Below, in pieces: positions 54-18,099 of a stretch of DNA of 20,000 bases. The translations under genes and the position numbers were made by a program. The DNA is from an uncultured virus (IMG/VR IMGVR_UViG_3300021959_008943) (lineage: Duplodnaviria > Heunggongvirae > Uroviricota > Caudoviricetes). Location: IMG/VR virus record IMGVR_UViG_3300021959_008943, one strand, 5' to 3'. Each line of letters begins with the position of its first letter. Positions within the stretch are counted from its first letter, which is position 1. Below the pieces are notes generated by a model. That model was given only the letters and a program-made list of their open reading frames with translations, was not told where the DNA came from and searched no databases.

Positions 54-2183
54 TTAAAGACCAGGTCTACCATAAAAAACCATATCTCCACCACCGACCG
101 GACGGCCGTTGATGATGTCACCATCAGAACCAGAATCAGCAAATGAATATCTATTTGCTTGAGAATTACTATCTCTTAAAGCTGTACATTCATATTGAAC
201 AACTCCGCCATAGTTATTAACTACATACAAATATTCGCCAGTATGATTCCAACAAATACTATTAATTCCGTTCGCCCATCCTCTTCGGTAGCTAGATGCT
301 TTGGTGTAAACTACATGAGGATTAAGATCGCCCACATAATAATCATAGAAATCTGCAATACTAGTATAACCACTATCTGCATGATTAATTGGGGCATGAA
401 TAAGTTCATCTATTTTTGCTTGCAGTCTTGAGGAATCTCCAAACAAAGCAAAGCTTTCAGAATCTCTTAAATGTTTTGCATTACTTCCAAATCTCCTAAC
501 AATATCAGCATCTTTATCACCTGGACCTCCATATCCACCAGAATCCATATCGCCGAGGGGGTCGCCAAATGCATTTATTTGATTAAACGCTGAATCAAAT
601 CGATTCAGAGGAAACAGCGCGGGCGGACCAATGGTTGACCATGCGGACACATGATCAGCTAAGTCATCCCAATCTATTCCGGCATATCCTAGAGTCATGC
701 CTTTCCAATCAGCAACATTCTCAAGTCTATATGTTGCAGCTGAATCGGCATCACTATAAATATCATATTTAGGATTGTTCAAACTCTGTCCACTGCTGGC
801 CACCAACGCATCGCCATTTCGTGTGAAGCTTCCATTGCCGGTTGTTGCGCTATCAAAGTAATCAAAAGGTTGAACTGTGCTCAAATCCCACGGAGTATCT
901 AAAACAAAATTCACAAGCTCCTGGCCTCCGGCAAAGTTATTCGCAACTAGAGTCATTATTTTTCCATCTTGAGATATATCAAAAGCATCAAACCCCCTAT
1001 TGGCCCAATAAGTGTTAATGCCAGAGTTGGGATTGCTAGAATGTCTTTTCAGATTAAAATGATATTGATCGCTATCTATAGTAAATGAGCTGCCTTGATA
1101 ATTACTCATAGTAGCAGATATAATCCAACTATCATCTACAAATGTATTATAACCATCCCACCCTTCACTTTGTTTTTTAAGACCAGTGCAATGAATAAGC
1201 ACTTTTAAATTATCATCGCCATAAGTAGGATTACCATTTGGCGTTGGCCCTAATTGCATTCGCATTTTATACGCATGTGCATCAAAATTATAATTGCCTG
1301 AAACACGCGAAATCCACCAATCTTCGCCATTGGCGTTAAAAAAATCAGAATCTAAAGTTGCAATTGTAGTTGGTACGCGAAATGGTACGCCGCTTCCAGG
1401 GCGCCAACTTCCAAAGTTTTGCGCGGTGCCGTAATCGGTGGGATATCTTCTAATTGTACCGCATTTAGCAGTTGTATCGGCAATTGGGTCATTATCGCTT
1501 AGAAGGTAAGTAAACGCAGAATTAGTAAGTTCTATATCTCGCACACTGCTATTAATCACATTAGGGTAGCTAATATACGACGCACCGATAGGAATATAGT
1601 TTTTATGTAAATTTTGCTCAACAAATATCTTTTGGTCTGAATCATTATTACCGTTTGGATCAGTGTAATATTTATGAAATTCAGATAAATCGCCCTTATT
1701 ATTATTTACTTGCCAATGGGAAATTTGAGTACCATTTCCTCTAAGTTGATAAATACCGGCACCAATATAAGTTCGACGTGTTCGAATTGGCATACCAAAA
1801 TGAACTGTATAAAAAGACGCTGCGGGTTTGCCTCTATTACCATCTTGCAAAAATGGAACAGGCAACATTTTTAAATTAAGAATTCCACCATTAAAAACTG
1901 GATCAGGGCTCTTAGTAATACTACCAGTTTCTCTAGACGTATTACTACCATATTCAACGACATCATTAGGATAATATGTTCCATTAACTATTTGCGATCC
2001 TGCTGCGTTTCCAGCATGACTATCTCTCAAAGGACCCCGGTTCAAAATAGAAGCATTTCTATATTCTGGATAATTCATATCCACAACCATTAACGGACCA
2101 TCTGAACTATCTAGTCTTGACGGCCGCAGATGTCTAATATCCCAATTTAAAAGATGACTGGATTTACCGTTGTTTAATATCAT
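54..2183 (-). CDS. Putative virion/receptor-binding protein associated with the tail fibre (709 aa), with beta-propeller-like segments
   Basis: Long ORF starting 11 nt after the fibre gene and followed by the terminator. Propeller-blade-like segments include FDISQDGKIMTLV, LDTPWDLST and ICWNHTGEYLYVV. Function is inferred from position. Confidence 0.5.
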   Translation of the reverse strand: MILNNGKSSHLLNWDIRHLRPSRLDSSDGPLMVVDMNYPEYRNASILNRGPLRDSHAGNAAGSQIVNGTYYPNDVVEYGSNTSRETGSITKSPDPVFNGGILNLKMLPVPFLQDGNRGKPAASFYTVHFGMPIRTRRTYIGAGIYQLRGNGTQISHWQVNNNKGDLSEFHKYYTDPNGNNDSDQKIFVEQNLHKNYIPIGASYISYPNVINSSVRDIELTNSAFTYLLSDNDPIADTTAKCGTIRRYPTDYGTAQNFGSWRPGSGVPFRVPTTIATLDSDFFNANGEDWWISRVSGNYNFDAHAYKMRMQLGPTPNGNPTYGDDNLKVLIHCTGLKKQSEGWDGYNTFVDDSWIISATMSNYQGSSFTIDSDQYHFNLKRHSSNPNSGINTYWANRGFDAFDISQDGKIMTLVANNFAGGQELVNFVLDTPWDLSTVQPFDYFDSATTGNGSFTRNGDALVASSGQSLNNPKYDIYSDADSAATYRLENVADWKGMTLGYAGIDWDDLADHVSAWSTIGPPALFPLNRFDSAFNQINAFGDPLGDMDSGGYGGPGDKDADIVRRFGSNAKHLRDSESFALFGDSSRLQAKIDELIHAPINHADSGYTSIADFYDYYVGDLNPHVVYTKASSYRRGWANGINSICWNHTGEYLYVVNNYGGVVQYECTALRDSNSQANRYSFADSGSDGDIINGRPVGGGDMVFYGRPGL

Positions 2184-2194
2184 TTAATTCTCTA

Positions 2195-5100
2195 TTATGC
2201 AAAATCTTGACCAACAACAGAACCATAAACAGTAGCTCCACCATCAGTTGTAAAAAATTGATAAAGTTGAGTGGAACTTGAAGCAACCGGAGTTTGAGGT
2301 TTTACTCCACCGCTCCACTTTACAGAAGATGGCCAAGTAATCTCTCTGCCACCGGTTGCTCCGTTTACGAGCATTACCATTAATTGAGCAAAATAACTAT
2401 TTGCAGGCAAATCAGTAAAGCCTATTGGAAAATTATTATTACCAGTATTTGTAATTTTATAATATTGGTTAGTTTTCCAGCTAAGGTTTTCTGTTGAAGT
2501 ATTAGTTTTAGTAATCTCAGTTCTAGAAGTAAATACGGTATTTGATGCTGTATATCCAACAACATTTACTATACCAGTACCATCAGACTCTTTAAGGTCT
2601 AGAGCCGATACGCCATATCCATCACCAACTGTATTGCTTTTTAATTTGAATGAAAGCTGATCTGCTGTATTAAGGTCTAAAAATCCTCTTTGTGCTGTTC
2701 CGTCTCTGAAATTAATTATTCCCAATCCAGCATCAAGTGTAAGATCGCCGTTACCAGTCTTTATAGTTACAGCGTCTGTTCCACTACCACCGCCACCAGT
2801 TCCATAGAACTCCCCATCCCCAGATACAGTAACCCCGCCTGCGTTAGATCCATTACCATAGCTAATTAATGTGTAATACGCTCCGCCTGCGTTATCTGTT
2901 ACGCGCAACGCCCCACTGGAATTGAGGGTTTTAAGCTTAATATCTGCACCATTACCTGTAGTTTTTAAATTAATAGATTGCGCATTACTAATTTCAAAAA
3001 GACCATTATCATCTAGGGTCATGGTAGTAGTATCACCACCTAGGCCATTTTTAAACAAAAAGTCATTACCCTCAGCATCAAATGTAATATCGCCATCAGA
3101 TGTTAATCCAAGGCCGTTTAAACTACGTGTATCAACTGCGCCTAATGCCATTCTAGTAGCTGAATCGCCATTCCATAATACAAACTGGTCTGTGCTATCT
3201 GCAGATATTTGAGTAGATAATTCATTAGGCGCAAATTCTAATGAATGATTAATGTTGGATCCACTAATGTCGCCAGTTGATGTTAAACCAATTCCAGCCT
3301 GTAAAGTTCCAACATAATCAGTAGCTGTAAATGTTGCATCAATCATAGCTTGAGCAGACGATGAATCCATAACATCTAATGTTACATTGCCACCAAGAGA
3401 TACTGATTTACCAATAGTATCTTCTCTAGTTTTAATTGTAATACTATTATTGGTTAGTTTAGAATTAGCAATTGATCCAGCAAGTTGTGCATTTGATATG
3501 CCTAAAGCTTTAACACTTACAGCACCAGCGGTAACACTAAAGTCATTACTATTAAATGAAGCAACACCCAACGTAGATGTTGTTGCAGCAGCTACAGATA
3601 AATCTACAGTATTGTCATCTGATTGATATGTTGCGGTAATATTTGTTTCGACATTCCCACTAAACAATCCGCCCGCAATTTTCTTAACATCTGAATCATT
3701 TACTTCAATAGTAACTTTATCGGTTGAAGAATTAACACCAATATCAATGCCTTCACCTTCTACAAAAGTAAGAGTTCCGCCTAACGAAACTGCTGCAGTA
3801 TTACCATCAGAATCTTTAAATGAAATTGATGAGTTAGCCAATTCAGCATTTGCCACTCCACCATTTTTAATTGTAACATCGCCGGCTGATACTAAGAAAT
3901 TATCAGAGCTAAATGATGCAATACCAAGAATGTCTGAATCTGCTTCATCAACAGAAACTGTTAAAGTAGATCCTGCCAAGTTTGTTTGAACTGATGTACC
4001 ACCATCAATCTTTAATGTTCCGGAACCTGTGGTTGCATTTACAAATAGATCATCATCATCATCGTCTTTAAAATGAATACCACCTGTAGTTGGAGCAGCA
4101 ATTGACAATTGATAGAACGTACCAGTTGAGTCAGTTGCTTCCCAATATCTACTGGTTTCATTCCATCTAAAGCCAGCGTAAAAAGTAGCTGCATCAACTT
4201 CACCACCAACAAAAACCCCAGCTCCACCAGCTTGGTTTGAATCAGTTAGGCCTGACCCAAGAACAATACTTTTATCTTCAACATTTAATGTTGAGGTATT
4301 TAGAATTGTTTGTGCGCCTTGAACAGTTAAGTTACCAGCAATAACAACATCATCAGGTAAGCCAACTGTAATTGTATCGCCAGATCTTACACTCGTAACT
4401 TGGCCGCTTGTTCCTTGTACTGTAAGAGTATTACCTCTATCCAAAGCAGAACCAGTATCACTGGCGCTGTCTTTTAAAGTTAATAGTGTATTTAAACTTA
4501 CTGCACCAGATGTTACTGTAAAATCTCCAGAGTTAAATGATGCAACGCCTTTATTTGAACTTGAAGCATTTTCGCCTTTAATTGTATAAGTGCCAGCGCC
4601 ATTTGTAATATCAATGCCTTCTCCTTCAACAAGAAAATTGCCTAAATCTGAATCAACTCTAGCTGTTGTATAGTAAATGTTTGTTGAGCCTTCATCTACT
4701 GAATCTGTAGACATAGCGTTCAATTCGTTAATAGCACCAGATAGTGTATTTGAGACAGTAGTTAAAGAAGAAGCACCAATTTCAGCATCAAGCTCATTAA
4801 TACCACCAGTTAAAGTTTTAGAAGTTGTTGTAAGATTTATAGCTGGTCTACTGCCAATGTCTGAATCTAATTCGTTAATAGCATCTACAACGTTCTGGCC
4901 TGTTGTGTTTAAACCTCCAGAGCCCATTGAATCATTCAATGTAGTAATATCAGTTTCGTGCTCATTAATAGCACCGCGAAGAGTACTTGCAGAAGTAGTT
5001 AAACTAGCCGCACCAATTTCACCATCAAGCTCATTAATACCACCAGTTAAAGTTTTTGCTGTGGTTGTCAAACCTGTATAAGGTCTTGCTCCAATGTCTG

Positions 5101-6064
5101 AATCTAATTCGTTAATAGCATCAGATAAAGTAGTTGCAGTAGTTGTTAAAGCTTGACCAGGTTCTACTTTAGTGTTAAGAGTATCAATTTCAACTTCTAA
5201 TTCGGATATAGCTCCACTCACTGTGGATGCCGTTGTGCCCATAGCACCGGCTGTGATAGTACCTAGTTCCGCATCTAATTCATTAAGAGCTGTGGTTAAT
5301 GCTGTTGCTGTTGTAGTTAAGTTACCAACTGTGCCAATATCAGATTCATGCTCGTTAATGGCCGCAACTATATTTTGTCCAGTAGTATTTAAACCACCAG
5401 AACCCATTGAATCATTTAGTGTATCAATTTCAACTTCTAATTCGGATATAGCCCCGCTTACTGTAGAAGCAGTTGTTCCCATTGCGCCGGATGAAATAGT
5501 ACCTAACTCAGCATCTAATTCATTGATGGCCGCAAAAGCATTTTGAGCGCTGGTACTTAGACTAGCTAGTGTACCTACAGAATCACGTAGCTCATTGATA
5601 GCATCGGTAAGTGTAGTACTGATGAATCCAACAAGACTTTGCGCAGGTTCGACATGAGCGTTGAGCGTATCAATTTCAGCTTCTAATTCACTAATAGCTC
5701 CACTTACAGTGGAAGCAGATGTACCCATTGCAGCAGGACTAATATCGTCAAGTTCTGCATCTAACTCATTGATAGCATCTGTTAGATTTTTAGCAGTGGT
5801 TGAAAGAGATATATAAGGTCTAACGCCTACGTCAGAATCAAGCTCATTGATAGCATCTGTTAAATTTTTAGCAATAGTAGTTAAATTAGAATGTGGTCTA
5901 GGACCAATGTCAGAATCAAGCTCATTGATAGCATCAGCCACAGGGCCAGCAGTAGTAGTCATTGTTGAAACATCGCCAACGGAATCAATAAGATCGTTAA
6001 ATCTTAATCTGCTAGTATTTAGTGTATCGCCAAGATCAACGTAAGGTATCTTTGAATTAGCCAT
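2195..6064 (-). CDS. Long tail fibre / fibritin-like trimeric fibre protein (1289 aa)
   Basis: N-terminal anchor (DTLNTSRLRFNDL), 16 coiled-coil AINEL-type repeats, a G/S/T-rich beta-repeat shaft, and a C-terminal domain (ITWPSSVKWSGG..P...YQFFTTDGGATVYG) commonly seen at phage fibre termini. Confidence 0.8.
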   Translation of the reverse strand: MANSKIPYVDLGDTLNTSRLRFNDLIDSVGDVSTMTTTAGPVADAINELDSDIGPRPHSNLTTIAKNLTDAINELDSDVGVRPYISLSTTAKNLTDAINELDAELDDISPAAMGTSASTVSGAISELEAEIDTLNAHVEPAQSLVGFISTTLTDAINELRDSVGTLASLSTSAQNAFAAINELDAELGTISSGAMGTTASTVSGAISELEVEIDTLNDSMGSGGLNTTGQNIVAAINEHESDIGTVGNLTTTATALTTALNELDAELGTITAGAMGTTASTVSGAISELEVEIDTLNTKVEPGQALTTTATTLSDAINELDSDIGARPYTGLTTTAKTLTGGINELDGEIGAASLTTSASTLRGAINEHETDITTLNDSMGSGGLNTTGQNVVDAINELDSDIGSRPAINLTTTSKTLTGGINELDAEIGASSLTTVSNTLSGAINELNAMSTDSVDEGSTNIYYTTARVDSDLGNFLVEGEGIDITNGAGTYTIKGENASSSNKGVASFNSGDFTVTSGAVSLNTLLTLKDSASDTGSALDRGNTLTVQGTSGQVTSVRSGDTITVGLPDDVVIAGNLTVQGAQTILNTSTLNVEDKSIVLGSGLTDSNQAGGAGVFVGGEVDAATFYAGFRWNETSRYWEATDSTGTFYQLSIAAPTTGGIHFKDDDDDDLFVNATTGSGTLKIDGGTSVQTNLAGSTLTVSVDEADSDILGIASFSSDNFLVSAGDVTIKNGGVANAELANSSISFKDSDGNTAAVSLGGTLTFVEGEGIDIGVNSSTDKVTIEVNDSDVKKIAGGLFSGNVETNITATYQSDDNTVDLSVAAATTSTLGVASFNSNDFSVTAGAVSVKALGISNAQLAGSIANSKLTNNSITIKTREDTIGKSVSLGGNVTLDVMDSSSAQAMIDATFTATDYVGTLQAGIGLTSTGDISGSNINHSLEFAPNELSTQISADSTDQFVLWNGDSATRMALGAVDTRSLNGLGLTSDGDITFDAEGNDFLFKNGLGGDTTTMTLDDNGLFEISNAQSINLKTTGNGADIKLKTLNSSGALRVTDNAGGAYYTLISYGNGSNAGGVTVSGDGEFYGTGGGGSGTDAVTIKTGNGDLTLDAGLGIINFRDGTAQRGFLDLNTADQLSFKLKSNTVGDGYGVSALDLKESDGTGIVNVVGYTASNTVFTSRTEITKTNTSTENLSWKTNQYYKITNTGNNNFPIGFTDLPANSYFAQLMVMLVNGATGGREITWPSSVKWSGGVKPQTPVASSSTQLYQFFTTDGGATVYGSVVGQDFA
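4720..5960 (-). repeat. Intragenic tandem repeat array (16 LTT..xxLxxAINEL[D/E] units of about 22-30 aa)
   Basis: Visible in the protein and in the DNA. Identical or near-identical stretches occur at 5831-5857/5909-5935 (offset 78), 5181-5212/5421-5452 (offset 240) and 4854-4885/5091-5122 (offset 237). Confidence 0.9.
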
Positions 6065-6275
6065 TATTATTGCTCTCTAATAGTTGCTGCAGCATTGCTT
6101 TAATTTCTGTTACATCTGTCTTTATTTGTTCAAATTCTTCACGTTCTTTAATTTTAGCATCCCGAGCTCTTCGACGCAAATTAGACTTATCTTTATTTAT
6201 ATTAACTATGGAGTTAGTTCTAACATCTCTGGCTAAATCTGGATATCCTTCAACTTTAATTAAATAGTCTTTCAT
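6057..6275 (-). CDS. Small T4-like phage hypothetical protein with C-terminal coiled coil (72 aa)
   Basis: IKVEGYPDLARDVRTNSIVNIN followed by a heptad-rich tail. It resembles the small ORF that follows the DUF4815-like gene in marine T4-like phages, and overlaps both neighbours (TAATG at 6275; 8-nt overlap with the fibre start). Confidence 0.75.
   Translation of the reverse strand: MKDYLIKVEGYPDLARDVRTNSIVNINKDKSNLRRRARDAKIKEREEFEQIKTDVTEIKAMLQQLLESNNNG
6194..6201 (-). promoter_or_regulatory. T4-type late promoter TATAAATA inside the 72-aa ORF, about 130 nt upstream of the fibre gene
   Basis: Exact match to the gp55 late consensus on the coding strand (+ strand tatttata). Confidence 0.55.
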
Positions 6276-9102: not shown

Positions 9103-9111
9103 ATCTATCTC

Positions 9112-12066
9112 CTATGCTCCACCATCAATATTTTCATTACCTTGGGATGTAACGGTTTTGGTATTTATTTCAGCTACTGCTGCTGTAGTTCCTAATTCAT
9201 AAGAACCATCAACTTTTTTCCGAGTAGTAAATGCGTCGCGTGGTGGTTCAATTGTAGCTGATCCTACTGATTTGTTCATCTCAAATTGATTTACATTTAT
9301 AACTTTTGATGCTACATTTTGATTTATATAAACTTCTTCAGTATATGTAGGCCAAACAGTGTTACCTTTTTGTTGTACATTGGATGATGTATCAGAATCA
9401 TAATAAAGAGTAAGAGCTCTACCAAATATCATAGGTGATACTCTACTCATATTACGATCAATTCTAGCTCTATAATCCAAATCAGTCATATAAGACTGTA
9501 TATTACTATTAAAAGTGTCGCCGGTAATACCTTGCTTAACTCTATCTGGTAAAGTGGCATCGTTTGGATCTTGAACATCTAATTGCTGTAATTCCATTTC
9601 TGAAATAGTTAAAGCTGTAAGCTCTTCAACATTATTAAGTCTGTCATTCATTCTACGAATATCTGACATTTTAAAGCCACGATGGTCAATAGTTCTTATA
9701 AATAAATCATTTTCATTAAATGTATATGGATTTAGCATAACACTGTGCAAAAGCAGTTCATTCAAAGGAACAGCTGGTGCTACAGGATTAGGTGATGTCT
9801 GACCTTTTGTAACAGTAATAAAACCGGTATTAGAAATATGCACAATATCTCTACGAGGCATCCAGTTTGCTACAGTTCCTGCAGTTATAGTTGCTCCGTT
9901 CTTCGGTAAAGGTTCAATGACTGAACCAGTTCCTGTAAATTGAGCTCCAGTATCATTTTTAACTGGTCTCATATCAATAACATCTGTTAGTTTATGGAAA
10001 ATACCAGTACTTGTCGAATATTGCGGTACTTTTTCATATGCAATATCTGGATAAGAATTCTTACCCGCAAAATAATCTCCGGCTGAATGTGTGAAATAAT
10101 CGTATGTTACTGTCACAGTACCACCAGGAACTGTAGATCCACTCTTTACTGTACCAGTACCAACTGTGTAGAAATCATCTCTTTGACCGTTATTAAATAT
10201 AAATCTGTTTGTAATATCTAAACCAGTTGCATCTTCTACAACTGACTTAAATATATAAATGTCAGGCTTAGTAAGAGTAAATGTTCTGCCAACTATTGAA
10301 AGACTTTCAGAATAATTTAGTTGAAGTCTTTTAATTTTTTGAACTGCTGTTTTATTTTCATATGCTAATAATGTAACAGCTTTTAGCGCTGGTAATCCTG
10401 AGATAGTAGTAACAGCTCCACCTGCAGAATCATATGATGGTGGAGAGAACATTTCACCATCTGAATCTACTTGAATCATCCAGCTAGCGCCATCGGTAAA
10501 ATTATTATTTGAAATGTCTGATACTTGGAATGTAGCTATACCTGAAACGTTTGTAGTGTCTGTAGTAATACGAGTAACTGGCATTGTTACATTTGTGATA
10601 CTTTGAACTCTTGGCTGGCCAATTGGTATTAGTAAAGAGCTTTGTTGTTTATCAATTAAACTAATAACACCATTTACGGCTTTTAAATCTGCAAAGTCAG
10701 ATGAATCCGTACCAATAGCTTTTACGTTTCTAAATGATTTACCAGCATTTAGATTTACATCGAATAAATGAATTCTATATTCGTTATCGAAATCTTGAAT
10801 ATTTCTAATTCTTGTAGTACCAACTACAGAAGTTTTTCCTATATCATCATATAAATTAACTGTACTAAAATCACTAATATGGCTAATTAAACCTTTTACA
10901 TTTGCAGAATCTGCTAATACATAATTACCATATCGTGCTGATATAAACTCATTTGTTTTATTATGCAAATCGCTTGTAGTACTTCTCGGTTTTTCTATAC
11001 GAATTGGATTACTAGCAGATCTTCTTTCTACTCTATTACCATTAATGAATAGGACACCGCCGCCAACATTAAATCTTAAAAAATTATCATCGCTATCTTC
11101 ATCGACAATTAAATCAAATTGCGAACCAGGGTTGTTTACAATAAAGTCACCAGTAATATCATTAGTTCTTGCATTAATAATACTACCTAATTCACCTAGT
11201 GTATCGTTACTTTGATTAATCTTACGTACCACGCCGTTTTGCATTTTTAGAAGAGGATAGAACGTTTGACTTGCTGTTACATCTGACTCTTTTGTTAGAG
11301 TCATTTTAATTCTATAACGATCAGCACCCGGAGATGTTAGATTCGGTGTTGAACCAGTATTATCATATAAAGCGTTATCATCACTTACTGTCACAACATC
11401 TTCTGTTAACACATAACCTATTACTTCATCGGGTGCGGGATTATATTTGCTAATAACTAAACTTTGTGAATTTACAAAAATAAAATGACCGGCTACAAAG
11501 GTATCAAATTTAGGAATTTCGATCATAGAACCTTTACCAATAGCCAAATCATTTTGGTTATTAGCTGCGATTGTTAATGTTCCGCTACCATCACTTGTAG
11601 AATAATTTAAAGTTTCCCCTGCAACAAAAGTTTTTGGCGCAGCTGATGGGTCATCTGAAGTTAAATTATTTGAACTAATATATCGTACTAATAAGGTATC
11701 AGGATCTCCAGCAGCTGCTGGAATGGCAGCTTTTACTGTAGCGCTTATACCATCAGCATTTGTAATTTTAGTTCCAACTAAAGTAGGATAACTTACGCTT
11801 AAAGATCCGAATGAAACTAATTTAACGTAACCTACAGGACTAAACCCACTACTTAGATTTCCGCTTGATCCAAATATTCCGGCTTCATTAAATAAGAATG
11901 AACCAACTCTTGCTAATTCTGATTGAATGATAGTTTGAGACTGAGTTAGCTCTCTTGCTTGCAAAGCTCTGCCGCTATTAAACAATATTCTGTGATAGTT
12001 ATCACTATCGCGATAGTCGTCTTTATACTCAGTAGAAAAAGTAGTTTGTATTAGATTAGTTGCCAT
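9112..12066 (-). CDS. DUF4815/VrlC-like virion structural protein, N-terminal part (984 aa)
   Basis: Characteristic N-terminus YKDDY..NYHRILFNSGRALQARELTQSQTIIQ, plus PGADRYRI, FNNGQRDDFY, DVIDMRP and FKMSDI..RLNNVE. It directly follows gp8, as in marine T4-like phages. RBS AAGGA upstream. Confidence 0.8.
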   Translation of the reverse strand: MATNLIQTTFSTEYKDDYRDSDNYHRILFNSGRALQARELTQSQTIIQSELARVGSFLFNEAGIFGSSGNLSSGFSPVGYVKLVSFGSLSVSYPTLVGTKITNADGISATVKAAIPAAAGDPDTLLVRYISSNNLTSDDPSAAPKTFVAGETLNYSTSDGSGTLTIAANNQNDLAIGKGSMIEIPKFDTFVAGHFIFVNSQSLVISKYNPAPDEVIGYVLTEDVVTVSDDNALYDNTGSTPNLTSPGADRYRIKMTLTKESDVTASQTFYPLLKMQNGVVRKINQSNDTLGELGSIINARTNDITGDFIVNNPGSQFDLIVDEDSDDNFLRFNVGGGVLFINGNRVERRSASNPIRIEKPRSTTSDLHNKTNEFISARYGNYVLADSANVKGLISHISDFSTVNLYDDIGKTSVVGTTRIRNIQDFDNEYRIHLFDVNLNAGKSFRNVKAIGTDSSDFADLKAVNGVISLIDKQQSSLLIPIGQPRVQSITNVTMPVTRITTDTTNVSGIATFQVSDISNNNFTDGASWMIQVDSDGEMFSPPSYDSAGGAVTTISGLPALKAVTLLAYENKTAVQKIKRLQLNYSESLSIVGRTFTLTKPDIYIFKSVVEDATGLDITNRFIFNNGQRDDFYTVGTGTVKSGSTVPGGTVTVTYDYFTHSAGDYFAGKNSYPDIAYEKVPQYSTSTGIFHKLTDVIDMRPVKNDTGAQFTGTGSVIEPLPKNGATITAGTVANWMPRRDIVHISNTGFITVTKGQTSPNPVAPAVPLNELLLHSVMLNPYTFNENDLFIRTIDHRGFKMSDIRRMNDRLNNVEELTALTISEMELQQLDVQDPNDATLPDRVKQGITGDTFNSNIQSYMTDLDYRARIDRNMSRVSPMIFGRALTLYYDSDTSSNVQQKGNTVWPTYTEEVYINQNVASKVINVNQFEMNKSVGSATIEPPRDAFTTRKKVDGSYELGTTAAVAEINTKTVTSQGNENIDGGA

Positions 12067-12075
12067 AGTAAATCC

Positions 12076-13518
12076 TTAGAGTCTGATAACGACCTTGATG
12101 TCTTCTGTTTGATCTTCATCACGAGTTTTAGGGTCAATGTTTGCCAGAAATAGTAAATCCCCTGAGTATGGATCGATGTCCGGTAAAATTCGCGCCGAAT
12201 CTGCTACAATACCTGTAGTATCTCCAATATCTATAGTATCACCATCAGTAAATTGTGTAAAGCCAGTTGTTATATCATTTTGATGATACCAAATAGAAGT
12301 ATTAGGAGATGCTGCATCGGACCAGTCTAGAATTCCTTTTGCGTCTCCACCATTTTCTTCAATAATATCGTTAAAATCTAATCCAGTGTATTGAGCATCC
12401 AGTGTCATTCTCCATAGAGCAAGACCAGCTTCTGCTGTAAATTTTTCTGAACTGTCATAGAGTGTTGGGTTTTTAATTAATGCAATTTGACGATAATTTT
12501 GATCTATCACAAATTTTGGATTGCCATCAACAATCTCTTGACCGTCGGGTTTAATATTAAACATTAAGGCATTTGATTTTAAATCATTAATTGGATTGTG
12601 GCCTAAACCATTTTTTGGAGAGAAAACTGGTTTAATAATTGCCCCAGAGCCTGTATTAGCTGTAATTTTTACCTCAGCATAATCATATCCATTTCCCATT
12701 GCATCTTGAAATAATGGGTAAGGAGCTTGGCCAACGCTAGAACTATCACCAATTAGAACATGACCAATAACACCTGAAGATGTGATTGAAGCTCGAGCAG
12801 TTGCACCAGTGCCGTTTCCAATTATATCTAAAGTAACATCGCCTGCGCCTGTTGGATAACCTGATCCGCCATTTATAACTTGATACCCAACAATTTGTGC
12901 TGAATCCGCAGCTTGTTTTACAAGATATTGTGAAAAATATGGATCATCAGCTGGAGCAGAATCCACATATTTTAATGGCATCCAAGCGGTAGTCATAAAG
13001 TTATTTGCATCAGTAACATTTACACTGTATAAAAATTTCCAAATGTATCCATCTGTTTCTTCTGTAAGAGTAGAGTTAGTATGATCTGGTTTTACAGTTG
13101 AAGGCTGTTCTTCGCCTGCGGTATTTTTATTAGATTTAATGCAAAGATAAACATTATTATCATCGGTAATAACATATGGCGTTTGATCTACTGGATGGTT
13201 AACAGTTTCATGATCGCTAAACTGATAAAATGTATCGCCTGATGTCCAATCTCTTTTTGGTACAACCCAACTAAATGCATCCAGGGCTTTTACTGATTGC
13301 ATTGAAAATCTAAACTCACGTTCTTCTCTAGCGTTAACGCTAAAACCCGGCGGGTTTGTATCGTTGATGTTAATATTTATAGGATCATTCCATGCTTCAG
13401 AACGACCTATTGCAATATAAAAATTATTATCAGAGTCGCCAATACGTGTACCTTCATTTTCATTGAAGATTTTTTGTACTAAATCTCTTTTTAATGTATC
13501 AGTTAAAATAGAAGCCAT
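12076..13518 (-). CDS. gp8: Baseplate wedge subunit gp8
   Basis: FYIAIGRSEAW, VVPKRDWTSG, YVITDDNNVYLCI, PSTVKP, DGYIWKFLY, YRQIALIKNP and terminal YSGDLLFL...RDEDQTEDIKVVI are typical of T4-like gp8. Confidence 0.88.
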   Translation of the reverse strand: MASILTDTLKRDLVQKIFNENEGTRIGDSDNNFYIAIGRSEAWNDPINININDTNPPGFSVNAREEREFRFSMQSVKALDAFSWVVPKRDWTSGDTFYQFSDHETVNHPVDQTPYVITDDNNVYLCIKSNKNTAGEEQPSTVKPDHTNSTLTEETDGYIWKFLYSVNVTDANNFMTTAWMPLKYVDSAPADDPYFSQYLVKQAADSAQIVGYQVINGGSGYPTGAGDVTLDIIGNGTGATARASITSSGVIGHVLIGDSSSVGQAPYPLFQDAMGNGYDYAEVKITANTGSGAIIKPVFSPKNGLGHNPINDLKSNALMFNIKPDGQEIVDGNPKFVIDQNYRQIALIKNPTLYDSSEKFTAEAGLALWRMTLDAQYTGLDFNDIIEENGGDAKGILDWSDAASPNTSIWYHQNDITTGFTQFTDGDTIDIGDTTGIVADSARILPDIDPYSGDLLFLANIDPKTRDEDQTEDIKVVIRL

Positions 13519-13528
13519 GTTTTATTTC

Positions 13529-14515
13529 CTAGGATGTTGAGGCCGTGCCACCAATGATGTACCAATTATTATTTACCCACATAATCATCGTTGATTGTTT
13601 TGTGGTAACGTCAATGTCTGTATGAGCACCATTTTCTGGATCAAATGATGTCGGTTGAATTACAACCGGAGAAGTACCAATATTAGTAAATGTTTTAGTT
13701 TCTCCAACCACCGTGCCATTTGGAACGGTAACTGTAATTCCACTACCATTTACAAGATAATTACTTTTTGTAACATCAGCTAATGTTCCACCTGCAGTAA
13801 TTGTTGTTGCAGGTGGTAATGCTAATTTATTTACTAAAATAGCGCTGTTTCCTTTTGGTTCTAAAGTCAAGCTAATATTTGTATTAGAACCAGTTGCTGA
13901 AACTTTTGGTGCGCCGCCATTTGCATTTGAAATAGTAATTTCATTTGTTGCTGAGCTTACTGGAGCAAATTTAATAATTTCGTTATTGTTTGTGTCATTA
14001 ATAGCAGAAATAATTTTTGGAGAAGTAATAGATGCTCCAGCATTAATTATTGTACCAGTAGACAATGTTTTATTTTTTAAAGTTTGAGTATCAGAGTCAC
14101 CAACTATATTTGTTGCTGGAATTGATTTAGATGTAGAACTATCAATTACACCACTTCCGTCTGATAACATAAAAGACGATACGGGTAAACCATTAATTGT
14201 GTTTAAACCAATATCAATTGTTTTATTTGTAATAGTTTGAATAGCTGAATCAATAAGAACATTACCACCAGAATCTGGAAAGTCTATTTCAATATTTTCA
14301 TTGCCTTCATTGAAACCAACTCTAGTGTGATATAATATGCCATTAAGATCAAACCCACTGTCAGTTAGAGATGTTGCAGTTGATATGCTTGAATCTCCAC
14401 CAAGCCTGCTGAAGATCTCTTGAAAATTGGAATTCATTTTTACTCCGGCGGTACGTAAAGTATCGCCAGTTCCATCATTTGCTATAGATCCAATATTAAT
14501 TATGCGTCTAGCCAT
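13529..14515 (-). CDS. gp9: gp9/gp10-like baseplate wedge tail-fibre connector (328 aa)
   Basis: The N-terminus INIGSIANDGTGDTLRTAGVKMNSNF is the T4 gp9/gp10 N-terminal signature. The size is close to gp9 rather than gp10. Confidence 0.7.
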   Translation of the reverse strand: MARRIINIGSIANDGTGDTLRTAGVKMNSNFQEIFSRLGGDSSISTATSLTDSGFDLNGILYHTRVGFNEGNENIEIDFPDSGGNVLIDSAIQTITNKTIDIGLNTINGLPVSSFMLSDGSGVIDSSTSKSIPATNIVGDSDTQTLKNKTLSTGTIINAGASITSPKIISAINDTNNNEIIKFAPVSSATNEITISNANGGAPKVSATGSNTNISLTLEPKGNSAILVNKLALPPATTITAGGTLADVTKSNYLVNGSGITVTVPNGTVVGETKTFTNIGTSPVVIQPTSFDPENGAHTDIDVTTKQSTMIMWVNNNWYIIGGTASTS

Positions 14516-14544
14516 TTGGTTTCTCGTTCAAAATTAGTTGAAAT

Positions 14545-14552
14545 TATTTATA
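14545..14552 (-). promoter_or_regulatory. T4-type late promoter TATAAATA upstream of the gp9-like gene
   Basis: Exact consensus in the 41-nt intergenic gap, 30 nt upstream of the ATG at 14515. Confidence 0.85.
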
Positions 14553-14556
14553 ATGT

Positions 14557-15627
14557 TTATCCAGTGTAATCTGCCGAGTCAGCACTATTTTCAGAATCAA
14601 ATAATGTATTGAATTTGCCTTCATCAAATCTAGATGTAAACATATCAGAATCAGATAGAGTTTGTTCTTCGTCGAAGGTAGCTGCTGTTCTAAATACAGA
14701 CGCTGGATCGTCTGAATCATCGAATGTAGCACTACTTGCATCCAGCATTTCTTCAAGATTGTAGCCTTGTGCATCCTCAAGTTTAATGTTTCCAATTTGG
14801 TCGAAGAACTGATTTGCATTTTGTCTGTGCATACCGTAATCTGTATCTCCATCAACAAGTAGTGTCTGTGAAATAAATGTTTCTGTTTGTAGACTTGCAT
14901 CAACTGTGAAACCAAGAGTAGCAGTTAATTCATCGCCATTTGGTAGCTGGTCTTCCAAACCATTTTCATTAATAAGTTCAATAAGAAGTTCACTGCCAAG
15001 ATACATGCCGGCCGGATGGACAAATAACTTATACACATCCCGCCATTCATTTACAGACACACCAACTCGAATTAGCAAAGACATGACTTGGTAAAGCTTA
15101 TCATCAGTGATAAATCTTTGAGATTCAGTGCCAATATTAGATGCAGGCGATGTTATTTGTTGGCCTGCTGTATTTGCGCTGTCTAATGTATAATTAATTT
15201 CAGGGCCAACTTTAAAAATATTTTCTTTTGGATACGTTACAACAGGGTCTTCTCCATAAAACCCTCTAAAGAATTGTTCAATCGAATACTTAGTTCCTTT
15301 TGAACGATATAAAAGATTTGAAAACTTAATCGCTTCTCTTTTATTTTGAAATCCACCAAAATATGATTGTCCTAAAAGCAACTCATCTTCTAAAAATGGG
15401 AGATTATCACTAGGCGTTTGTGTAGCATCTCTTGATTCGTACAATCTTTTAATTTTACCAGAAGGATTTATATCTGAATCCATAAATTCATAATAAGCTT
15501 CAAACAATTGTTTTAGCTTTGGATATTCTTCGCCAAAGTACTCGGGTAGAACGTTGTCAATTTCCGCTCTATGGAAATCCAACTTAATTCTATTATCATC
15601 GAATGGGGTTTTATCTTTATATGCCAT
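14557..15627 (-). CDS. Short gp7-like baseplate wedge protein (356 aa)
   Basis: LPEYFGEEYPKLKQLFEAYYEFM, LYRSKGTKYSIEQFFRGFYG and YQVMSLLIRVG..WRDVYKLFVHPAGMYLGSE match conserved segments of gp7-type wedge initiators. It follows gp6 with a TAATG overlap. Confidence 0.7.
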   Translation of the reverse strand: MAYKDKTPFDDNRIKLDFHRAEIDNVLPEYFGEEYPKLKQLFEAYYEFMDSDINPSGKIKRLYESRDATQTPSDNLPFLEDELLLGQSYFGGFQNKREAIKFSNLLYRSKGTKYSIEQFFRGFYGEDPVVTYPKENIFKVGPEINYTLDSANTAGQQITSPASNIGTESQRFITDDKLYQVMSLLIRVGVSVNEWRDVYKLFVHPAGMYLGSELLIELINENGLEDQLPNGDELTATLGFTVDASLQTETFISQTLLVDGDTDYGMHRQNANQFFDQIGNIKLEDAQGYNLEEMLDASSATFDDSDDPASVFRTAATFDEEQTLSDSDMFTSRFDEGKFNTLFDSENSADSADYTG

Positions 15628-17655: not shown

Positions 17656-18099
17656 TTATCTCAACCTTGATAGTGAAGTTGTAAACTGTACAACTTCTTC
17701 AGTGTTTATTACCTGAAATTCTATTGTGACATTTAAGTCGTTATAATCTTCTATAAAATTAACAAATATATTAATGATTTTAGCTCGAGGTTCATACTCA
17801 TTAATTGTTTGAATAATAGCTTCTTTTACTTCTATTTCAATATCTTCATCGGCTAATTCAAATAATAGTCCTCTTACATTACCACCGAAAAAAGGTTCAA
17901 AAGGTTTTTCATAATAATTTGTTTGAATCAAATTTTTTAATGCTTGTACAACTGCAGAAGCATCTTTCTTTGTATAAAGCTCACCATTCGGCTTTGCTGT
18001 AAAAGACAAATCTATGTCTTTATATTCCTGGATACGAGAGGTAAGTTTCGATACCTCTGTTATATCTTTATCCTGCCGTGAAAATACTTTAGTCGCCAT
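17656..18099 (-). CDS. gp25: Baseplate wedge subunit gp25 (sheath initiator)
   Basis: YKDIDLSF, AVVQALKNLIQTNYYEKPFEPFFGGNV..LLFE, INEYEPRA and terminal LSRLR. It lies directly upstream of gp6. Confidence 0.93.
   Translation of the reverse strand: MATKVFSRQDKDITEVSKLTSRIQEYKDIDLSFTAKPNGELYTKKDASAVVQALKNLIQTNYYEKPFEPFFGGNVRGLLFELADEDIEIEVKEAIIQTINEYEPRAKIINIFVNFIEDYNDLNVTIEFQVINTEEVVQFTTSLSRLR

What the first reader, a model, noticed from the sequence alone, without database searches (positions are those of the whole stretch)
54..15627. D-S-[D/A/S/G] motif enriched across peripheral virion proteins but not core baseplate proteins: candidate sequon for virion surface modification
Seen (manual counts of Asp-Ser): 709-aa ORF 15, fibre 19, 553-aa ORF 7, 984-aa ORF 7, gp8 6, gp9-like 6 (of about 18 Asp), gp7-like 6. 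That totals about 66 in about 4700 aa, against 3 in about 1440 aa for the gp5 fragment, gp25 and gp6, and 1 in the 388-aa ORF. The next residue is D, A, S or G in about 53 of the 66 (DSD 21, DSA 15, DSS 12, DSG 5), while the four sites in the non-enriched proteins are DST or DSF. Ser is encoded by both TCN and AGY codons, pointing to protein-level selection. The proteins are unrelated folds. Established: Bacteroidota O-glycosylate D-(S/T)-small/hydrophobic sequons, and some phages glycosylate their virions with phage-encoded glycosyltransferases. Inference: this lineage may decorate outer baseplate and fibre proteins at DS sites, forming a glycan or other coat. No modifying enzyme is in this window. 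The 984-aa count alone is near chance.
Basis: partly seen in the sequence, partly recalled or inferred. Interest (0 to 1): 0.85.

Follow-up and report, generated by a model that had tools for sequence, protein, structure and literature searches.

The report
Asp-Ser tag on outer phage proteins
The outer baseplate and fibre proteins of this uncultured marine T4-like phage and its whole clade carry the tripeptide Asp-Ser-(Asp/Ala/Ser) four to seven times more often than chance while inner proteins lack it, which looks like a tag read by some unknown factor, possibly a sugar-adding enzyme, though no modification has been shown.

Summary
All 11 of its per-protein counts reproduce exactly. In the seven peripheral proteins DS occurs 66 times against 35 expected. 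DS[DASG] occurs 53 times against 12 (z 12; 0 of 5000 shuffles reach it, and local shuffles give the same result).

The signal is at protein level, not DNA level. The true motif is D-S-[D/A/S]. Gly is not part of it, and Thr, Glu or Asn cannot replace the Ser or Asp.

The pattern replicates in 24-29 dereplicated orthologues each of gp8, gp9 and gp7-like (O/E 6.5-7.6). Sites turn over while 4-5 per protein are kept. It is purged from gp6: 1 site against 38 expected in 36 sequences. It is absent from orthologues in T4, S-PM2, HTVC008M and C48C1.

So it is a clade-specific short linear motif under two-way selection. The best reading is a recognition tag for a serine modification.

No writer enzyme could be tied to it. 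Clade-specific GT8/GT25 glycosyltransferase genes exist in relatives but have rival uses.

This scan noted the same tag before on other marine T4-like DNA.

The parts
54..2183 (-). orf709, unknown protein downstream of the fibre gene; 15 DS, of which 8 are DS[DAS] and 3 are DSG
   Evidence: DS[DASG] is 11 against 1.98 expected, reached by 0 of 5000 shuffles. No Pfam or PHROG family. The only relatives are 38-40% identical, in 3 IMG/VR contigs. The 593-aa relative in L256 has DS 11 against 4.8 and DS[DAS] 7 against 1.2.
2195..6064 (-). 1289-aa tail fibre; 19 DS, 11 of them DS[DAS]; 4 copies of an INELDSD[IV] unit and 2 of an LNDSMG unit
   Evidence: C-terminus matches PHROG tail-fibre families (phrog_9017, E 1e-12). 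Contexts, repeat units. DS[DASG] is 11 against 4.3, p 0.003.
6275..7936 (-). orf553, C-terminal third of a phrog_358 giant baseplate protein that is split here; 7 DS, all DS[DAS]
   Evidence: phrog_358, E 4e-72. 7 against 1.0, reached by 0 of 5000 shuffles. It aligns to the single roughly 2000-aa proteins of G002, G003, C48C1 and HTVC008M.
7936..9102 (-). orf388, middle piece of the split phrog_358 protein; 1 DS (DSF), no motif
   Evidence: The homologues in L256 and L258 have 0 DS against 1.7 and 1.3 expected.
9112..12066 (-). orf984, N-terminal piece of the split phrog_358/DUF4815 protein; 7 DS, all DS[DAS]
   Evidence: PF16075, E 3e-43; phrog_358, E 9e-148. DS is 7 against 6.8 (chance), but DS[DASG] is 7 against 2.0, p 0.004.
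12076..13518 (-). gp8-like baseplate wedge protein; 6 DS, all DS[DAS] (residues 28, 186, 205, 258, 355, 440)
   Evidence: PF09215 scores 32.7 bits against a cut-off of 25; phrog_438, E 1e-60. The AF2 model has pLDDT 86 and matches T4 gp8 (1n7z_A, E 1.6e-10). 5 of the 6 sites lie in loops or at the ends of strands or helices and 1 lies inside a strand.
13529..14515 (-). gp9/gp10-like fibre connector; 6 DS among its 18 Asp (DSS x2, DSG x2, DSA, DSD)
   Evidence: PF07880 scores 33.2 bits against a cut-off of 25. 6 against 0.69, p 0.0002. The AF2 model has pLDDT 75, and all 6 sites are predicted as coil or turn. The fold matches tailspike N-terminal anchor domains.
14557..15627 (-). gp7-like 356-aa wedge protein; 6 DS, 5 of them DS[DA]
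   Evidence: PF23786 scores 36.4 bits against a cut-off of 27. 5 against 0.76, p 0.0002.
15627..17654 (-). gp6 inner wedge protein; 2 DS (DST, DSF), no motif
   Evidence: phrog_219, E 3e-122; PF21379. In 36 dereplicated orthologues there is 1 DS[DASG] against 38.4 expected, and DS is 70 against 131.8.
17656..18099 (-). gp25 inner wedge protein; no DS
   Evidence: PF04965. The 65 orthologues have 1 motif against about 10 expected.
18130..19998 (-). gp5-like hub or spike fragment, open at the window end; 1 DS (DST)
   Evidence: The full 794-aa protein in L002, and five further inner baseplate proteins upstream of it, have 0 DS[DAS] against 2.8 expected.

Best explanation
D-S-[D/A/S], usually preceded by a hydrophobic residue, is a short linear motif specific to this clade. 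Selection keeps adding it to the outward-facing virion proteins: gp7-like, gp8, gp9-like, the split phrog_358 protein, the fibres and orf709, and in relatives also the major capsid protein, a neck protein and gp15. Selection keeps it out of tightly packed inner proteins (gp6, gp25, gp5 and hub proteins) and, more weakly, out of non-virion proteins.

The most likely reason is that a trans-acting factor made during infection recognises the tripeptide and modifies its serine. My first guess is O-glycosylation by a phage-encoded glycosyltransferase, which would coat the particle's exterior.

What is shown: the enrichment, its chemical specificity, its restriction to the clade, the turnover of sites with a maintained number, and the purge from gp6.

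What is inferred: that the motif is read by an enzyme, that serine is the modified residue, that the adduct is a sugar, and that the sites are exposed.
For: 1. Strength. In the window DS[DAS] is 48 against 8.8 and DS[DASG] has z 12.4. An unbiased tripeptide scan without the fibre puts DSA, DSD and DSS at ranks 1, 2 and 4.

2. Chemical specificity, which does not fit a generic turn.
- Window: DSD 21 against 2.8, DSA 15 against 2.6, DSS 12 against 3.3. In contrast DT[DASG] is 4 against 12.7, ES[DASG] 3 against 5.8 and NS[DASG] 11 against 11.7.
- Replicated in the outer proteins of six other clade genomes: DS[DAS] 381 against 92.6, DT[DAS] O/E 0.39, ES[DAS] 0.47, DS[hydrophobic] 0.38.
- In non-virion proteins of those genomes DT[DAS] is 1.06 and ES[DAS] is 0.99.

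3. Independent replication in dereplicated orthologues, window excluded.
- gp8: 139 against 20.5 in 27 sequences.
- gp9: 94 against 12.4 in 29 sequences.
- gp7-like: 88 against 13.6 in 24 sequences.
- Only 1 of these 80 sequences has no site.
- All 61 related loci that hold at least two of the three genes are positive.

4. Turnover. The sites fall in 29-33 different alignment columns per protein. Orthologue pairs at 32-41% identity share only 20-40% of their sites, yet 4-5.5 sites per protein persist. Sequences that lack a site at a motif column mostly carry unrelated residues or gaps there.

5. Purge. gp6 has 1 site against 38.4 expected in 36 sequences. Non-virion proteins have O/E 0.54, against 0.73-0.95 for whole outgroup genomes.

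6. The folds do not require it. Orthologues in C48C1, HTVC008M and S-PM2 are at or below expectation: gp8 has 0 against 0.8, 1 against 1.5 and 0 against 1.0. No protein in T4, S-PM2, S-PRM1, S-CAM9 or HTVC008M is significantly enriched. The gp8 model nevertheless has the T4 gp8 fold.

7. Possible writers exist in the clade. A gene cluster with a GT8-family protein, several GT25-family proteins, a sugar-1-phosphate nucleotidyltransferase, methyltransferases and a BtrN-like radical SAM/SPASM enzyme is found in G002, G003, G004, G007 and G008. PF01755 (GT25) is absent from T4, S-PM2, HTVC008M and C48C1.

8. Precedent. SdgB O-GlcNAcylates serine in a minimal DSD peptide (PMC8561734, passages read).
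Against: - No chemistry is known. Nothing shows that any of these serines is modified.
- No enzyme is tied to the motif. Glycosyltransferase cluster and motif are both clade traits, which amounts to one phylogenetic event.
- G002 has 6 GT25 matches but the weakest motif signal (outer O/E 1.8).
- S-PRM1 and S-CAM9 carry the homologous HAD/nucleotidyltransferase gene with several glycosyltransferases and have no enrichment.
- C48C1 has two enriched proteins but no PF01755 match.
- The sugar genes have other plausible uses. G003 has TET/JBP plus TAGT, which points to DNA glycosylation. G020 has collagen-like fibres next to 2OG oxygenases and GT2 genes.
- The window's own genome beyond 20 kb is not held, so even the presence of the cluster in this phage is unknown.
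- Some sites look structural. gp9 alignment column 102 reads DSA 12, DTA 4, NTA 4. In fibres the motif is part of repeated units.
- The sites sit at strand ends, loops and turns, which also fits a turn motif.
- Orthologue counts are not phylogenetically independent. Expected values outside the window are composition products, not shuffles.
Confidence: 0.45

Rival explanations
1. Structural motif. Asp-Ser-small forms a favoured turn or cap at the ends of strands and helices. It was fixed early in this lineage, spread by duplication of fibre repeat units, and is kept for folding or stability in seawater. No reader is involved.
For: In the two AF2 models, 11 of the 12 gp8 and gp9 sites lie in loops, turns or coil, directly after strands or helices. 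Positions -1 and -2 are hydrophobic. Some columns alternate conservatively, for example DSA, DTA and NTA. In fibres the motif is embedded in repeated units: INELDSD here, and LIDSAYVQ 77 times in the 2855-aa G003 fibre. The flanks of motif columns are slightly richer in gaps and less conserved than average.
Against: A turn motif should tolerate Asn for Asp and Thr for Ser. Instead the near-cognates are depleted in exactly the proteins where DS[DAS] is enriched (O/E 0.3-0.5) and are at expectation in non-virion proteins. The same folds in T4, S-PM2, HTVC008M and C48C1 lack the motif. Sites turn over at about the rate of average residues while their number is kept. At motif columns, only 22-77 of the replacements per protein are conservative [DN][ST], against 277-397 unrelated. 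A structural motif also gives no reason for the purge from gp6 (1 against 38.4).
Confidence: 0.25
2. The serine is modified, but not by a sugar. Options are phosphorylation, a phospho-form such as glycerol phosphate, or oxidation by the conserved radical SAM/SPASM enzyme, by analogy with the conversion of Ser to formylglycine by anaerobic sulfatase-maturing enzymes.
For: A radical SAM/SPASM protein is 73-74% identical across G002, G003, G004 and G007 and 69% identical in C48C1, the one outgroup with two enriched proteins. Its best solved relative is the radical SAM dehydrogenase BtrN. A cytidylyltransferase-like gene (PF01467) is 74-89% identical in G002, G003, G005 and G020 and absent from all outgroups. 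G002 has a Zeta-toxin/AAA_33-like kinase gene in the cluster. The strict preference for Ser over Thr would fit several of these chemistries.
Against: The radical SAM gene sits among sugar-nucleotide and glycosyltransferase genes, and BtrN acts on a sugar-like substrate, so a role in sugar synthesis is the simpler reading. In G003 the cytidylyltransferase lies next to TET/JBP and TAGT, which are DNA-modification genes. The sulfatase-maturation analogy and its motif are recalled, not tested. No enzyme was linked to any protein substrate.
Confidence: 0.12
3. A docking or ion-binding motif without covalent chemistry. The tripeptide would bind a common partner on the virion surface, such as an accessory or decoration protein, a chaperone, Ca2+/Mg2+, or a host surface component.
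For: The pattern of outer enrichment with an inner purge, and the turnover of sites, fits any short linear motif that a partner reads. In relatives, families of roughly 400-aa paralogues (phrog_19111) of unknown role lie in the virion module and carry the motif themselves.
Against: DSA and DSS offer too few acidic ligands for a cation site. Marine outgroups in the same ionic environment lack the motif. Three residues are very short for a specific non-covalent interface. No candidate partner was identified.
Confidence: 0.1
4. Artefact of composition, local low complexity, codon or DNA-motif bias, internal repeats, or post hoc choice of motif and protein groups.
For: The fibre holds repeated units. 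The core-protein deficit within the window alone is not significant (DS 4 against 8.3).
Against: Global shuffles and shuffles within 10, 20 or 40 residues all give z of about 12. The signal is confined to the coding frame and uses both serine codon families in their usual proportions. It holds without the fibre and without orf709 (29 against 4.3). It is the top hit of an unbiased tripeptide scan.
Confidence: 0.01

Closest known systems
SdgB/SdgA O-GlcNAcylation of staphylococcal Ser-Asp repeat adhesins (PMC8561734, passages read; PMC3794999, abstract start seen in the listing)
   Same: The enzyme acts on serine flanked by aspartates, and the minimal substrate is the tripeptide DSD, which is the most enriched form here (7.4-fold). 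That the modification takes place in the cytoplasm is recalled, not from a call.
   Different: SD-repeat substrates are long tandem (SD)n tracts. Here the sites are isolated (SDS 1 against 3.3), DSA is as frequent as DSD, and the sites are scattered over folded proteins of many families. SdgB is a GT-B enzyme with a DUF1975 insert. The glycosyltransferases found in the relatives match GT8, GT25 and GT2 families. No homology to SdgB was tested.
Bacteroidota general O-glycosylation motif D-(S/T)-(A/I/L/V/M/T), broadened to include S/C/G/F (PMC8550257, passages read)
   Same: A three-residue sequon that starts with Asp, with the glycan on the second residue. DSA and DSS fit it. It operates proteome-wide on surface proteins.
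   Different: Thr is accepted there but depleted here (O/E 0.3-0.4). Hydrophobic third residues are accepted there but depleted here (0.38). Asp at position 3, the commonest here, is not in that motif. That system needs export to the periplasm, whereas tailed-phage virions assemble in the cytoplasm (general knowledge).
Mycobacteriophage virion glycosylation by phage-encoded glycosyltransferases (Freeman et al. 2023, Cell Host Microbe; seen only as a reference, paper not held)
   Same: A precedent that tailed phages can glycosylate their own virion proteins with their own enzymes. The details are recalled.
   Different: As far as I recall, no short sequon spread over the whole outer virion proteome was reported there. 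The hosts, phage families and enzymes are unrelated. Nothing about it was tested here.
T4 baseplate proteins gp6, gp7, gp8, gp9/gp10 and gp25
   Same: The carriers of the motif are homologues of these proteins, in the T4 gene order.
   Different: T4 itself has no enrichment. Genome-wide it has 40 against 55.0. Its gp8 (the 334-aa ORF) has 1 of 3 DS followed by D/A/S/G, and none of its proteins is significant.

Membership tests
Bacteroidota-type O-glycosylation sequon D-(S/T)-(A/I/L/V/M/T) | Ser and Thr are both used at position 2 | tested here: not met
   DT[DASG] is 4 against 12.7 in the window. DT[DAS] is 43 against 109.5 in the outer proteins of six relatives.
Bacteroidota-type O-glycosylation sequon D-(S/T)-(A/I/L/V/M/T) | Position 3 is A/I/L/V/M/T (broadened: also S/C/G/F) | tested here: not met
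   Asp is the commonest third residue in the window (21 of 66) and is 5.2-fold enriched in relatives. DS[VILMFYW] has O/E 0.38, DST 0.72 and DSG 1.03. Only A and S fit. The motif definition comes from PMC8550257.
Bacteroidota-type O-glycosylation sequon D-(S/T)-(A/I/L/V/M/T) | The substrate must be exported to the periplasm | not testable with these tools
   No signal-peptide predictor is on hand. By general knowledge, tailed-phage virion proteins assemble in the cytoplasm.
SdgB/SdgA-type Ser-Asp repeat glycosylation | The acceptor is serine in a D-S-D context | tested here: met
   DSD is 21 against 2.8 and 147 against 28.6 in relatives. The minimal DSD substrate is taken from PMC8561734.
SdgB/SdgA-type Ser-Asp repeat glycosylation | Long tandem SD dipeptide repeats | tested here: not met
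   The sites are isolated. SDS is 1 against 3.3 and all contexts are listed. DSA and DSS are used as well.
SdgB/SdgA-type Ser-Asp repeat glycosylation | A GT-B glycosyltransferase with a DUF1975 insert encoded with the substrate | not tested
   No enzyme lies in the window. The Pfam scans of selected proteins of G002, G003 and G020 found GT25, GT8 and GT2. Whole genomes were not scanned for GT4 or DUF1975.
0 of 8 records match at E 0.01 or better: G002-G005, C48C1, T4, HTVC008M and S-PM2.
T4 gp8 (PF09215) | Family profile above cut-off and the gp8 fold | tested here: met
   PF09215 scores 32.7 bits against a cut-off of 25. phrog_438 is matched over its full length. The model matches 1n7z_A at E 1.6e-10, TM 0.57 by target length.
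T4 gp9/gp10 N-terminal domain (PF07880) | Family profile above cut-off | tested here: met
   33.2 bits against a cut-off of 25, over residues 3-45 only. The rest of the protein resembles tailspike anchor domains. I therefore call it gp9/gp10-like, not a gp9 orthologue.
T4 gp6 and gp25 inner wedge | Family profiles above cut-off | tested here: met
   PF21379 scores 69.7 bits; phrog_219, E 3e-122; PF04965 scores 34.9 bits.

The most novel reading that the evidence does not exclude
A broad clade of uncultured marine T4-like phages uses a three-residue code, D-S-[D/A/S], to mark which of its own proteins, and where, receive a phage-made serine modification, probably a glycan built by the clade-specific GT8/GT25 cluster. 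This would give the particle an outer coat. Proteins that must pack tightly have purged the code. It would be a virus-encoded, proteome-wide O-linked sequon in a bacteriophage, one that evolves by gain and loss of sites like the glycan shields of animal viruses.
Probability: 0.3. Interest if true: 0.9.

Novelty: new variant of a known kind. Interest (0 to 1): 0.72.

Why it matters
If the tag marks a real modification, abundant ocean phages decorate their particles by a simple rule that can be read from sequence. Modified sites could then be predicted from metagenomes alone. That would bear on host recognition, on resistance to proteases and grazers, on particle stickiness and decay in seawater, and on how phage surfaces evolve.

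It would also give a compact sequon-and-enzyme pair for protein engineering.

Even without a known chemistry, the pattern has practical use. Strict D, strict S, enrichment on outer proteins and a purge from inner ones give a marker of which virion proteins face outward in uncultured T4-like phages.

I found no paper describing the motif in three full-text searches. This scan, however, has noted the same tag on other marine T4-like windows.

Tried and rejected
- **DNA-level explanation.** GANTC/GATTC sites or a G-starting third codon were considered. Rejected: the signal is confined to the coding frame and serine codon usage is normal.
- **Local composition or low complexity.** Rejected by shuffles within windows.
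- **Whole genome of the window.** Not held. The nearest records are fragments of 11.9 and 15.8 kb.
- **Maf-like enzyme lead (PF01973).** No sequence match in 8 records.
- **HAD/sugar-1-phosphate nucleotidyltransferase fusion as a marker of the writer.** Rejected: the cultured cyanophages S-PRM1 and S-CAM9 have it at 53% identity together with several glycosyltransferases, yet show no enrichment (46 against 51.3 and 58 against 66.9).
- **GT25 as the writer.** Neither shown nor excluded. It is present in 5 of 5 clade records that cover the region about 25-35 kb upstream of gp6, and absent from 4 outgroups. Copy number does not follow motif strength, and C48C1 has two enriched proteins without it.
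- **The GT2/epimerase/2OG-oxygenase cassette next to collagen-like fibres in G020**, the closest long relative. Its GT2 genes have no homologue in the other clade genomes, so it cannot be the common writer.
- **The 2OG-oxygenase fusion protein inside the virion module of G003 and G020.** Not found in G005, which covers that region.
- **A search for the GT8-like gene in other phage families.** The best 80 of 183 matching contigs are all at least 56% identical and appear to belong to the same clade, so this gave no independent test.
- **Unknown cluster proteins.** Sequence search against PDB gave nothing. The Atlas gave only leads, GT8 and GT9.
- **Helix N-cap idea.** It fits the fibre repeats but not the gp8 and gp9 sites.
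- **Solvent exposure.** Could not be computed, because the structure tool returns no coordinates.

Full report
**What the window is.** All 11 large ORFs lie on the minus strand. Together they form the baseplate and fibre module of a T4-like myovirus with about 35% G+C.

| Gene | Window coordinates | Main evidence |
|---|---|---|
| gp5-like fragment | 18130-19998 | no family match; a 35-38% identical relative lies just upstream of gp25 in G002 and G003 |
| gp25 | 17656-18099 | PF04965 |
| gp6 | 15627-17654 | phrog_219, E 3e-122 |
| gp7-like wedge protein | 14557-15627 | PF23786 |
| gp9/gp10-like connector | 13529-14515 | PF07880 |
| gp8 | 12076-13518 | PF09215; phrog_438 |
| orf984, orf388, orf553 | 9112-12066, 7936-9102, 6275-7936 | see below |
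| 1289-aa fibre | 2195-6064 | C-terminal tail-fibre PHROGs |
| orf709 | 54-2183 | no family |

The three ORFs 984, 388 and 553 together equal one phrog_358/DUF4815 protein of about 2000 aa in relatives. The nearest named phages are distant: gp6 is 30-37% identical by tblastn to those of phage C48C1, Pelagibacter phage HTVC008M, the Methylophilales Melnitz phages and cyanophages. No whole genome is held for the window.

**The observation.**
- There are 66 Asp-Ser in the seven peripheral proteins (4699 aa), 3 in gp6, gp25 and the gp5 fragment (1444 aa), and 1 in orf388.
- The followers are D 21, A 15, S 12 and G 5.
- With 5000 composition-preserving shuffles per protein, DS is 66 against 35.1 (z 5.7) and DS[DASG] is 53 against 11.9 (z 12.4). 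No shuffle reaches either value.
- Shuffling only within 10, 20 or 40 residues changes nothing (z 11.9-12.2), so local composition is not the cause.
- Each of the seven proteins is individually significant for DS[DASG] (p 0.004 or lower). The reverse dipeptide SD is only mildly raised (50 against 35.2).
- GATTC, the commonest DNA spelling, occurs 46 times in codon frame 0 and 1 and 4 times in the other sense frames. Serine codons after Asp are 47 TCN and 19 AGY, the general mix. The signal is in the protein.
- The fibre contributes repeated units: INELDSD four times and LNDSMG twice. Without the fibre DS[DAS] is 37 against 5.7, and without the fibre and orf709 it is 29 against 4.3.
- An unbiased scan of all tripeptides seen at least five times then ranks DSA, DSD and DSS 1st, 2nd and 4th.

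**The motif, refined.**
- In the window, DSD is 7.4-fold enriched, DSA 5.8-fold and DSS 3.6-fold. DSG (5 against 3.2), DSE, DST, DSN and DSV are at chance.
- Near-cognates are depleted or flat: DT[DASG] 4 against 12.7, ES[DASG] 3 against 5.8, NS[DASG] 11 against 11.7.
- Positions -1 and -2 favour L, A, I, F and Y.
- The outer proteins of six other clade genomes show the same: DS[DAS] 381 against 92.6, DSG 36 against 34.8, DT[DAS] O/E 0.39, ES[DAS] 0.47, DS[hydrophobic] 0.38.
- In the non-virion proteins of those genomes DT[DAS] and ES[DAS] are at 1.06 and 0.99, and DSA is at 0.38.
- The motif is therefore strictly Asp, strictly Ser, then Asp or Ala, or less often Ser.

**Replication and evolution.** A search with gp6 fetched 80 IMG/VR loci.
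- Orthologues at below 45% identity to the window keep the enrichment: gp8 247 against 47.6, gp9 177 against 30.7, gp7-like 113 against 21.2.
- All 61 loci that hold at least two of these three genes are positive, with O/E 2.3-10.
- After dereplication, and leaving the window out, DS[DAS] is 139 against 20.5 (27 gp8), 94 against 12.4 (29 gp9) and 88 against 13.6 (24 gp7-like). One of the 80 sequences has no site.
- The sites are not fixed. They occupy 29-33 different alignment columns per protein.
- Pairs at 32-41% identity share only 20-40% of their sites, about as much as average residues, while 4-5.5 sites per protein persist.
- Sequences that lack a site at a motif column carry unrelated residues (277-397 cases per protein) or gaps far more often than conservative [DN][ST] (22-77 cases).
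- A few columns do look structural, for example gp9 column 102 with DSA 12, DTA 4 and NTA 4.
- gp6 shows the opposite: 36 dereplicated sequences hold 1 DS[DASG] against 38.4 expected, and 70 DS against 131.8.
- gp25 and gp5 orthologues are also low.
- In L002, a near-identical strain that reaches 7.3 kb further upstream, six more hub and inner baseplate proteins have 0 DS[DAS] against 2.8 expected.
- orf388, the middle piece of the split protein, has 0 DS in both relatives, while its two neighbouring pieces keep 6-7 sites each.

**Whole genomes.** I rebuilt two related genomes, G002 (144 kb, terminal repeats) and G003 (155 kb), and four partial ones, G004, G005, G007 and G009. I called ORFs with a simple caller of my own. 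Proteins were classed from G003's PHROG annotation and by homology to it. The classes are rough.

| Class (six clade genomes) | DS[DASG] observed / expected | O/E | Share of DS followed by D/A/S/G |
|---|---|---|---|
| Outer virion proteins | 417 / 127.4 | 3.3 | 75% |
| Inner and assembly proteins | 22 / 33.0 | 0.67 | 27% |
| Non-virion proteins | 31 / 57.7 | 0.54 | 17% |

- The follower contrast between outer and non-virion proteins has Fisher p 1e-44.
- In G003 the carriers include the major capsid protein (3 of 3 DS), a neck protein (7 of 7), gp15 (2 of 2) and a family of roughly 400-aa paralogues. The portal (0 of 3), terminase, scaffold, tube and gp6 have none.
- Outgroup genomes are flat: T4 40 against 55.0, S-PM2 84 against 88.2, HTVC008M 49 against 57.1, C48C1 68 against 73.7, S-PRM1 46 against 51.3, S-CAM9 58 against 66.9. 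None of their proteins is significant, except two in C48C1.
- Their gp8 orthologues, and the gp7-like orthologues of C48C1 and S-PM2, are at or below expectation; that of HTVC008M has 4 against 2.4. No separate gp9 orthologue was found in them.
- The AF2 model of the window's gp8 (pLDDT 86) nevertheless has the T4 gp8 fold (1n7z_A, E 1.6e-10). The folds do not demand the motif.

**Structural context.**
- In the gp8 model, sites 28, 186, 205, 258 and 355 lie in loops or just after strands or helices, and site 440 lies inside a strand.
- In the gp9-like model (pLDDT 75), sites 41 and 52 follow a helix and sit in a hairpin turn, and the other four lie in a low-confidence coil.
- The flanks of motif columns are somewhat richer in gaps and less conserved than average in gp8 and gp7-like.
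- This fits surface loops, and it fits a turn motif equally well. True exposure could not be computed.

**Who might read it.** The window holds no enzyme. Genes shared by G002 and G003 and missing from the outgroups include a cluster at G003 7.6-19.8 kb and G002 108-131 kb. It holds:
- several PF01755 (GT25) proteins;
- a 261-aa protein whose G002 copy passes PF01501 (GT8);
- a beta-phosphoglucomutase-like HAD fused to a sugar-1-phosphate nucleotidyltransferase;
- methyltransferases, and a cupin in G003;
- a carbamoyltransferase and a Zeta-toxin-like kinase, in G002;
- a radical SAM/SPASM protein whose best solved relative is BtrN.

GT25 is found in all five clade records that cover that region (G002, G003, G004, G007, G008). 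It is found in none of T4, S-PM2, HTVC008M or C48C1. The GT8-like gene occurs in 183 IMG/VR contigs.

This is only a co-occurrence at clade level, and several results speak against a simple link.
- G002 has the most GT25 matches and the weakest motif.
- The cultured cyanophages S-PRM1 and S-CAM9 share the nucleotidyltransferase fusion and have several glycosyltransferases, but no motif.
- C48C1 has two enriched proteins, the radical SAM gene (69% identity) and a GT9-like neighbour, but no GT25 match.
- G003 also encodes TET/JBP and TAGT, so the sugars may go onto DNA.

**The closest long relative.** G020 is 68-75% identical to the window in orf984, orf388 and orf553. Just beyond the point where the window ends it carries:
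- three collagen-repeat fibres with Peptidase_S74 chaperone domains, one of them with a PA14 domain;
- several 2OG-Fe(II) oxygenases;
- two GT2 glycosyltransferases;
- a sugar epimerase/dehydratase.

This suggests that fibres are modified after translation in this sublineage. The GT2 genes have no homologue in the other clade genomes, however, so they cannot be the common reader of the DS motif.

**Reading.** Five features fit best with a short linear motif read by a trans-acting factor made in the infected cell, most simply an enzyme that modifies the serine:
- strict residue specificity;
- enrichment on outer proteins of unrelated families;
- turnover of sites with a maintained number;
- depletion of near-cognates exactly where the motif is enriched;
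- the purge from gp6.

Glycosylation is the leading guess, because SdgB accepts a bare DSD peptide (PMC8561734) and because the clade carries its own glycosyltransferases. None of this is shown. A lineage-specific structural turn motif remains a serious rival.

**Novelty.** Three full-text searches found no paper on such a motif in phage virions. Earlier notes of this scan describe the same D-S-[D/E/A] tag on other marine T4-like windows, so the finding is not new to the scan. What this window adds:
- a refined motif, without Gly;
- a quantified turnover of sites;
- negative controls from cultured cyanophages that carry a related sugar cluster;
- the gp6 purge on 36 sequences;
- the modification cassette in G020.

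**Limits.**
- Expected values outside the window are composition products, not shuffles.
- Orthologues are related, so the counts overstate the number of independent events.
- ORF calls and class labels are my own and are rough.
- The models are monomers.

Noticed in passing
window 6275-12066 (- strand): orf984, orf388 and orf553 together align to one phrog_358/DUF4815 protein of about 1700-2100 aa in G002, G003, C48C1 and HTVC008M. The gene is thus split in three here (9-nt gap at 9103-9111; 1-nt overlap at 7936). The same split is kept in relatives L256 and L258. The middle piece has 1 DS here and none in those two relatives, while both flanking pieces carry 6-7 motif sites.
   Followed up: partly
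window 18125, 14552, 13381, 6201 (- strand): Four exact TATAAATA octamers, the T4 late-promoter consensus (recalled). Three lie just upstream of gene starts: gp25 at 18099, gp9-like at 14515, and the fibre at 6064 within the 210-nt gap. The fourth lies inside gp8.
   Followed up: no
G020 (loci L260-L261), contig positions about 30-49 kb: In the closest long relative, just past the point where the window ends, lie three collagen-triple-helix fibre proteins (740, 557 and 560 aa; GXY runs of up to 78 triplets) with Peptidase_S74 chaperone ends, one also with a PA14 domain. Beside them are 2OG-Fe(II) oxygenases, two GT2 glycosyltransferases (one fused to a methyltransferase) and an epimerase/dehydratase. 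This may be a collagen hydroxylation and glycosylation cassette in a phage.
   Followed up: partly
G003 (L096:6129-14693): A 2855-aa fibre protein with 116 DS, 77 of them DSA, mostly within repeated units of the type LDSALT..LIDSAYVQ.
   Followed up: partly
G003 (L093:7644-19817) and G002 (L090-L091): A sugar cluster specific to the clade: 4-6 GT25-family genes, a GT8-family gene, a beta-phosphoglucomutase-like HAD fused to a nucleotidyltransferase, methyltransferases, and a radical SAM/SPASM enzyme nearest to BtrN. G003 also has a cupin. G002 also has a carbamoyltransferase and a Zeta-toxin-like kinase.
   Followed up: partly
G003 (L099:9444-11985): A TET/JBP dioxygenase, a TET-associated glycosyltransferase (PF20691) and a small cytidylyltransferase-like gene lie side by side. 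This suggests glycosylated 5-hydroxymethylpyrimidine in the DNA of this relative.
   Followed up: no
G003 78-92 kb and 107.6 kb (L097, L098): About ten tandem paralogues of roughly 400 aa (phrog_19111, unknown function) lie inside the virion module. They share DKFPF and NATDVGDL blocks. Nearly every DS in them (in all but two of the genes) is followed by D/A/S/G.
   Followed up: no
window 14544-14915 (- strand): A 123-aa TTG ORF lies wholly inside the gp7-like gene in another frame. It is probably not a gene.
   Followed up: no
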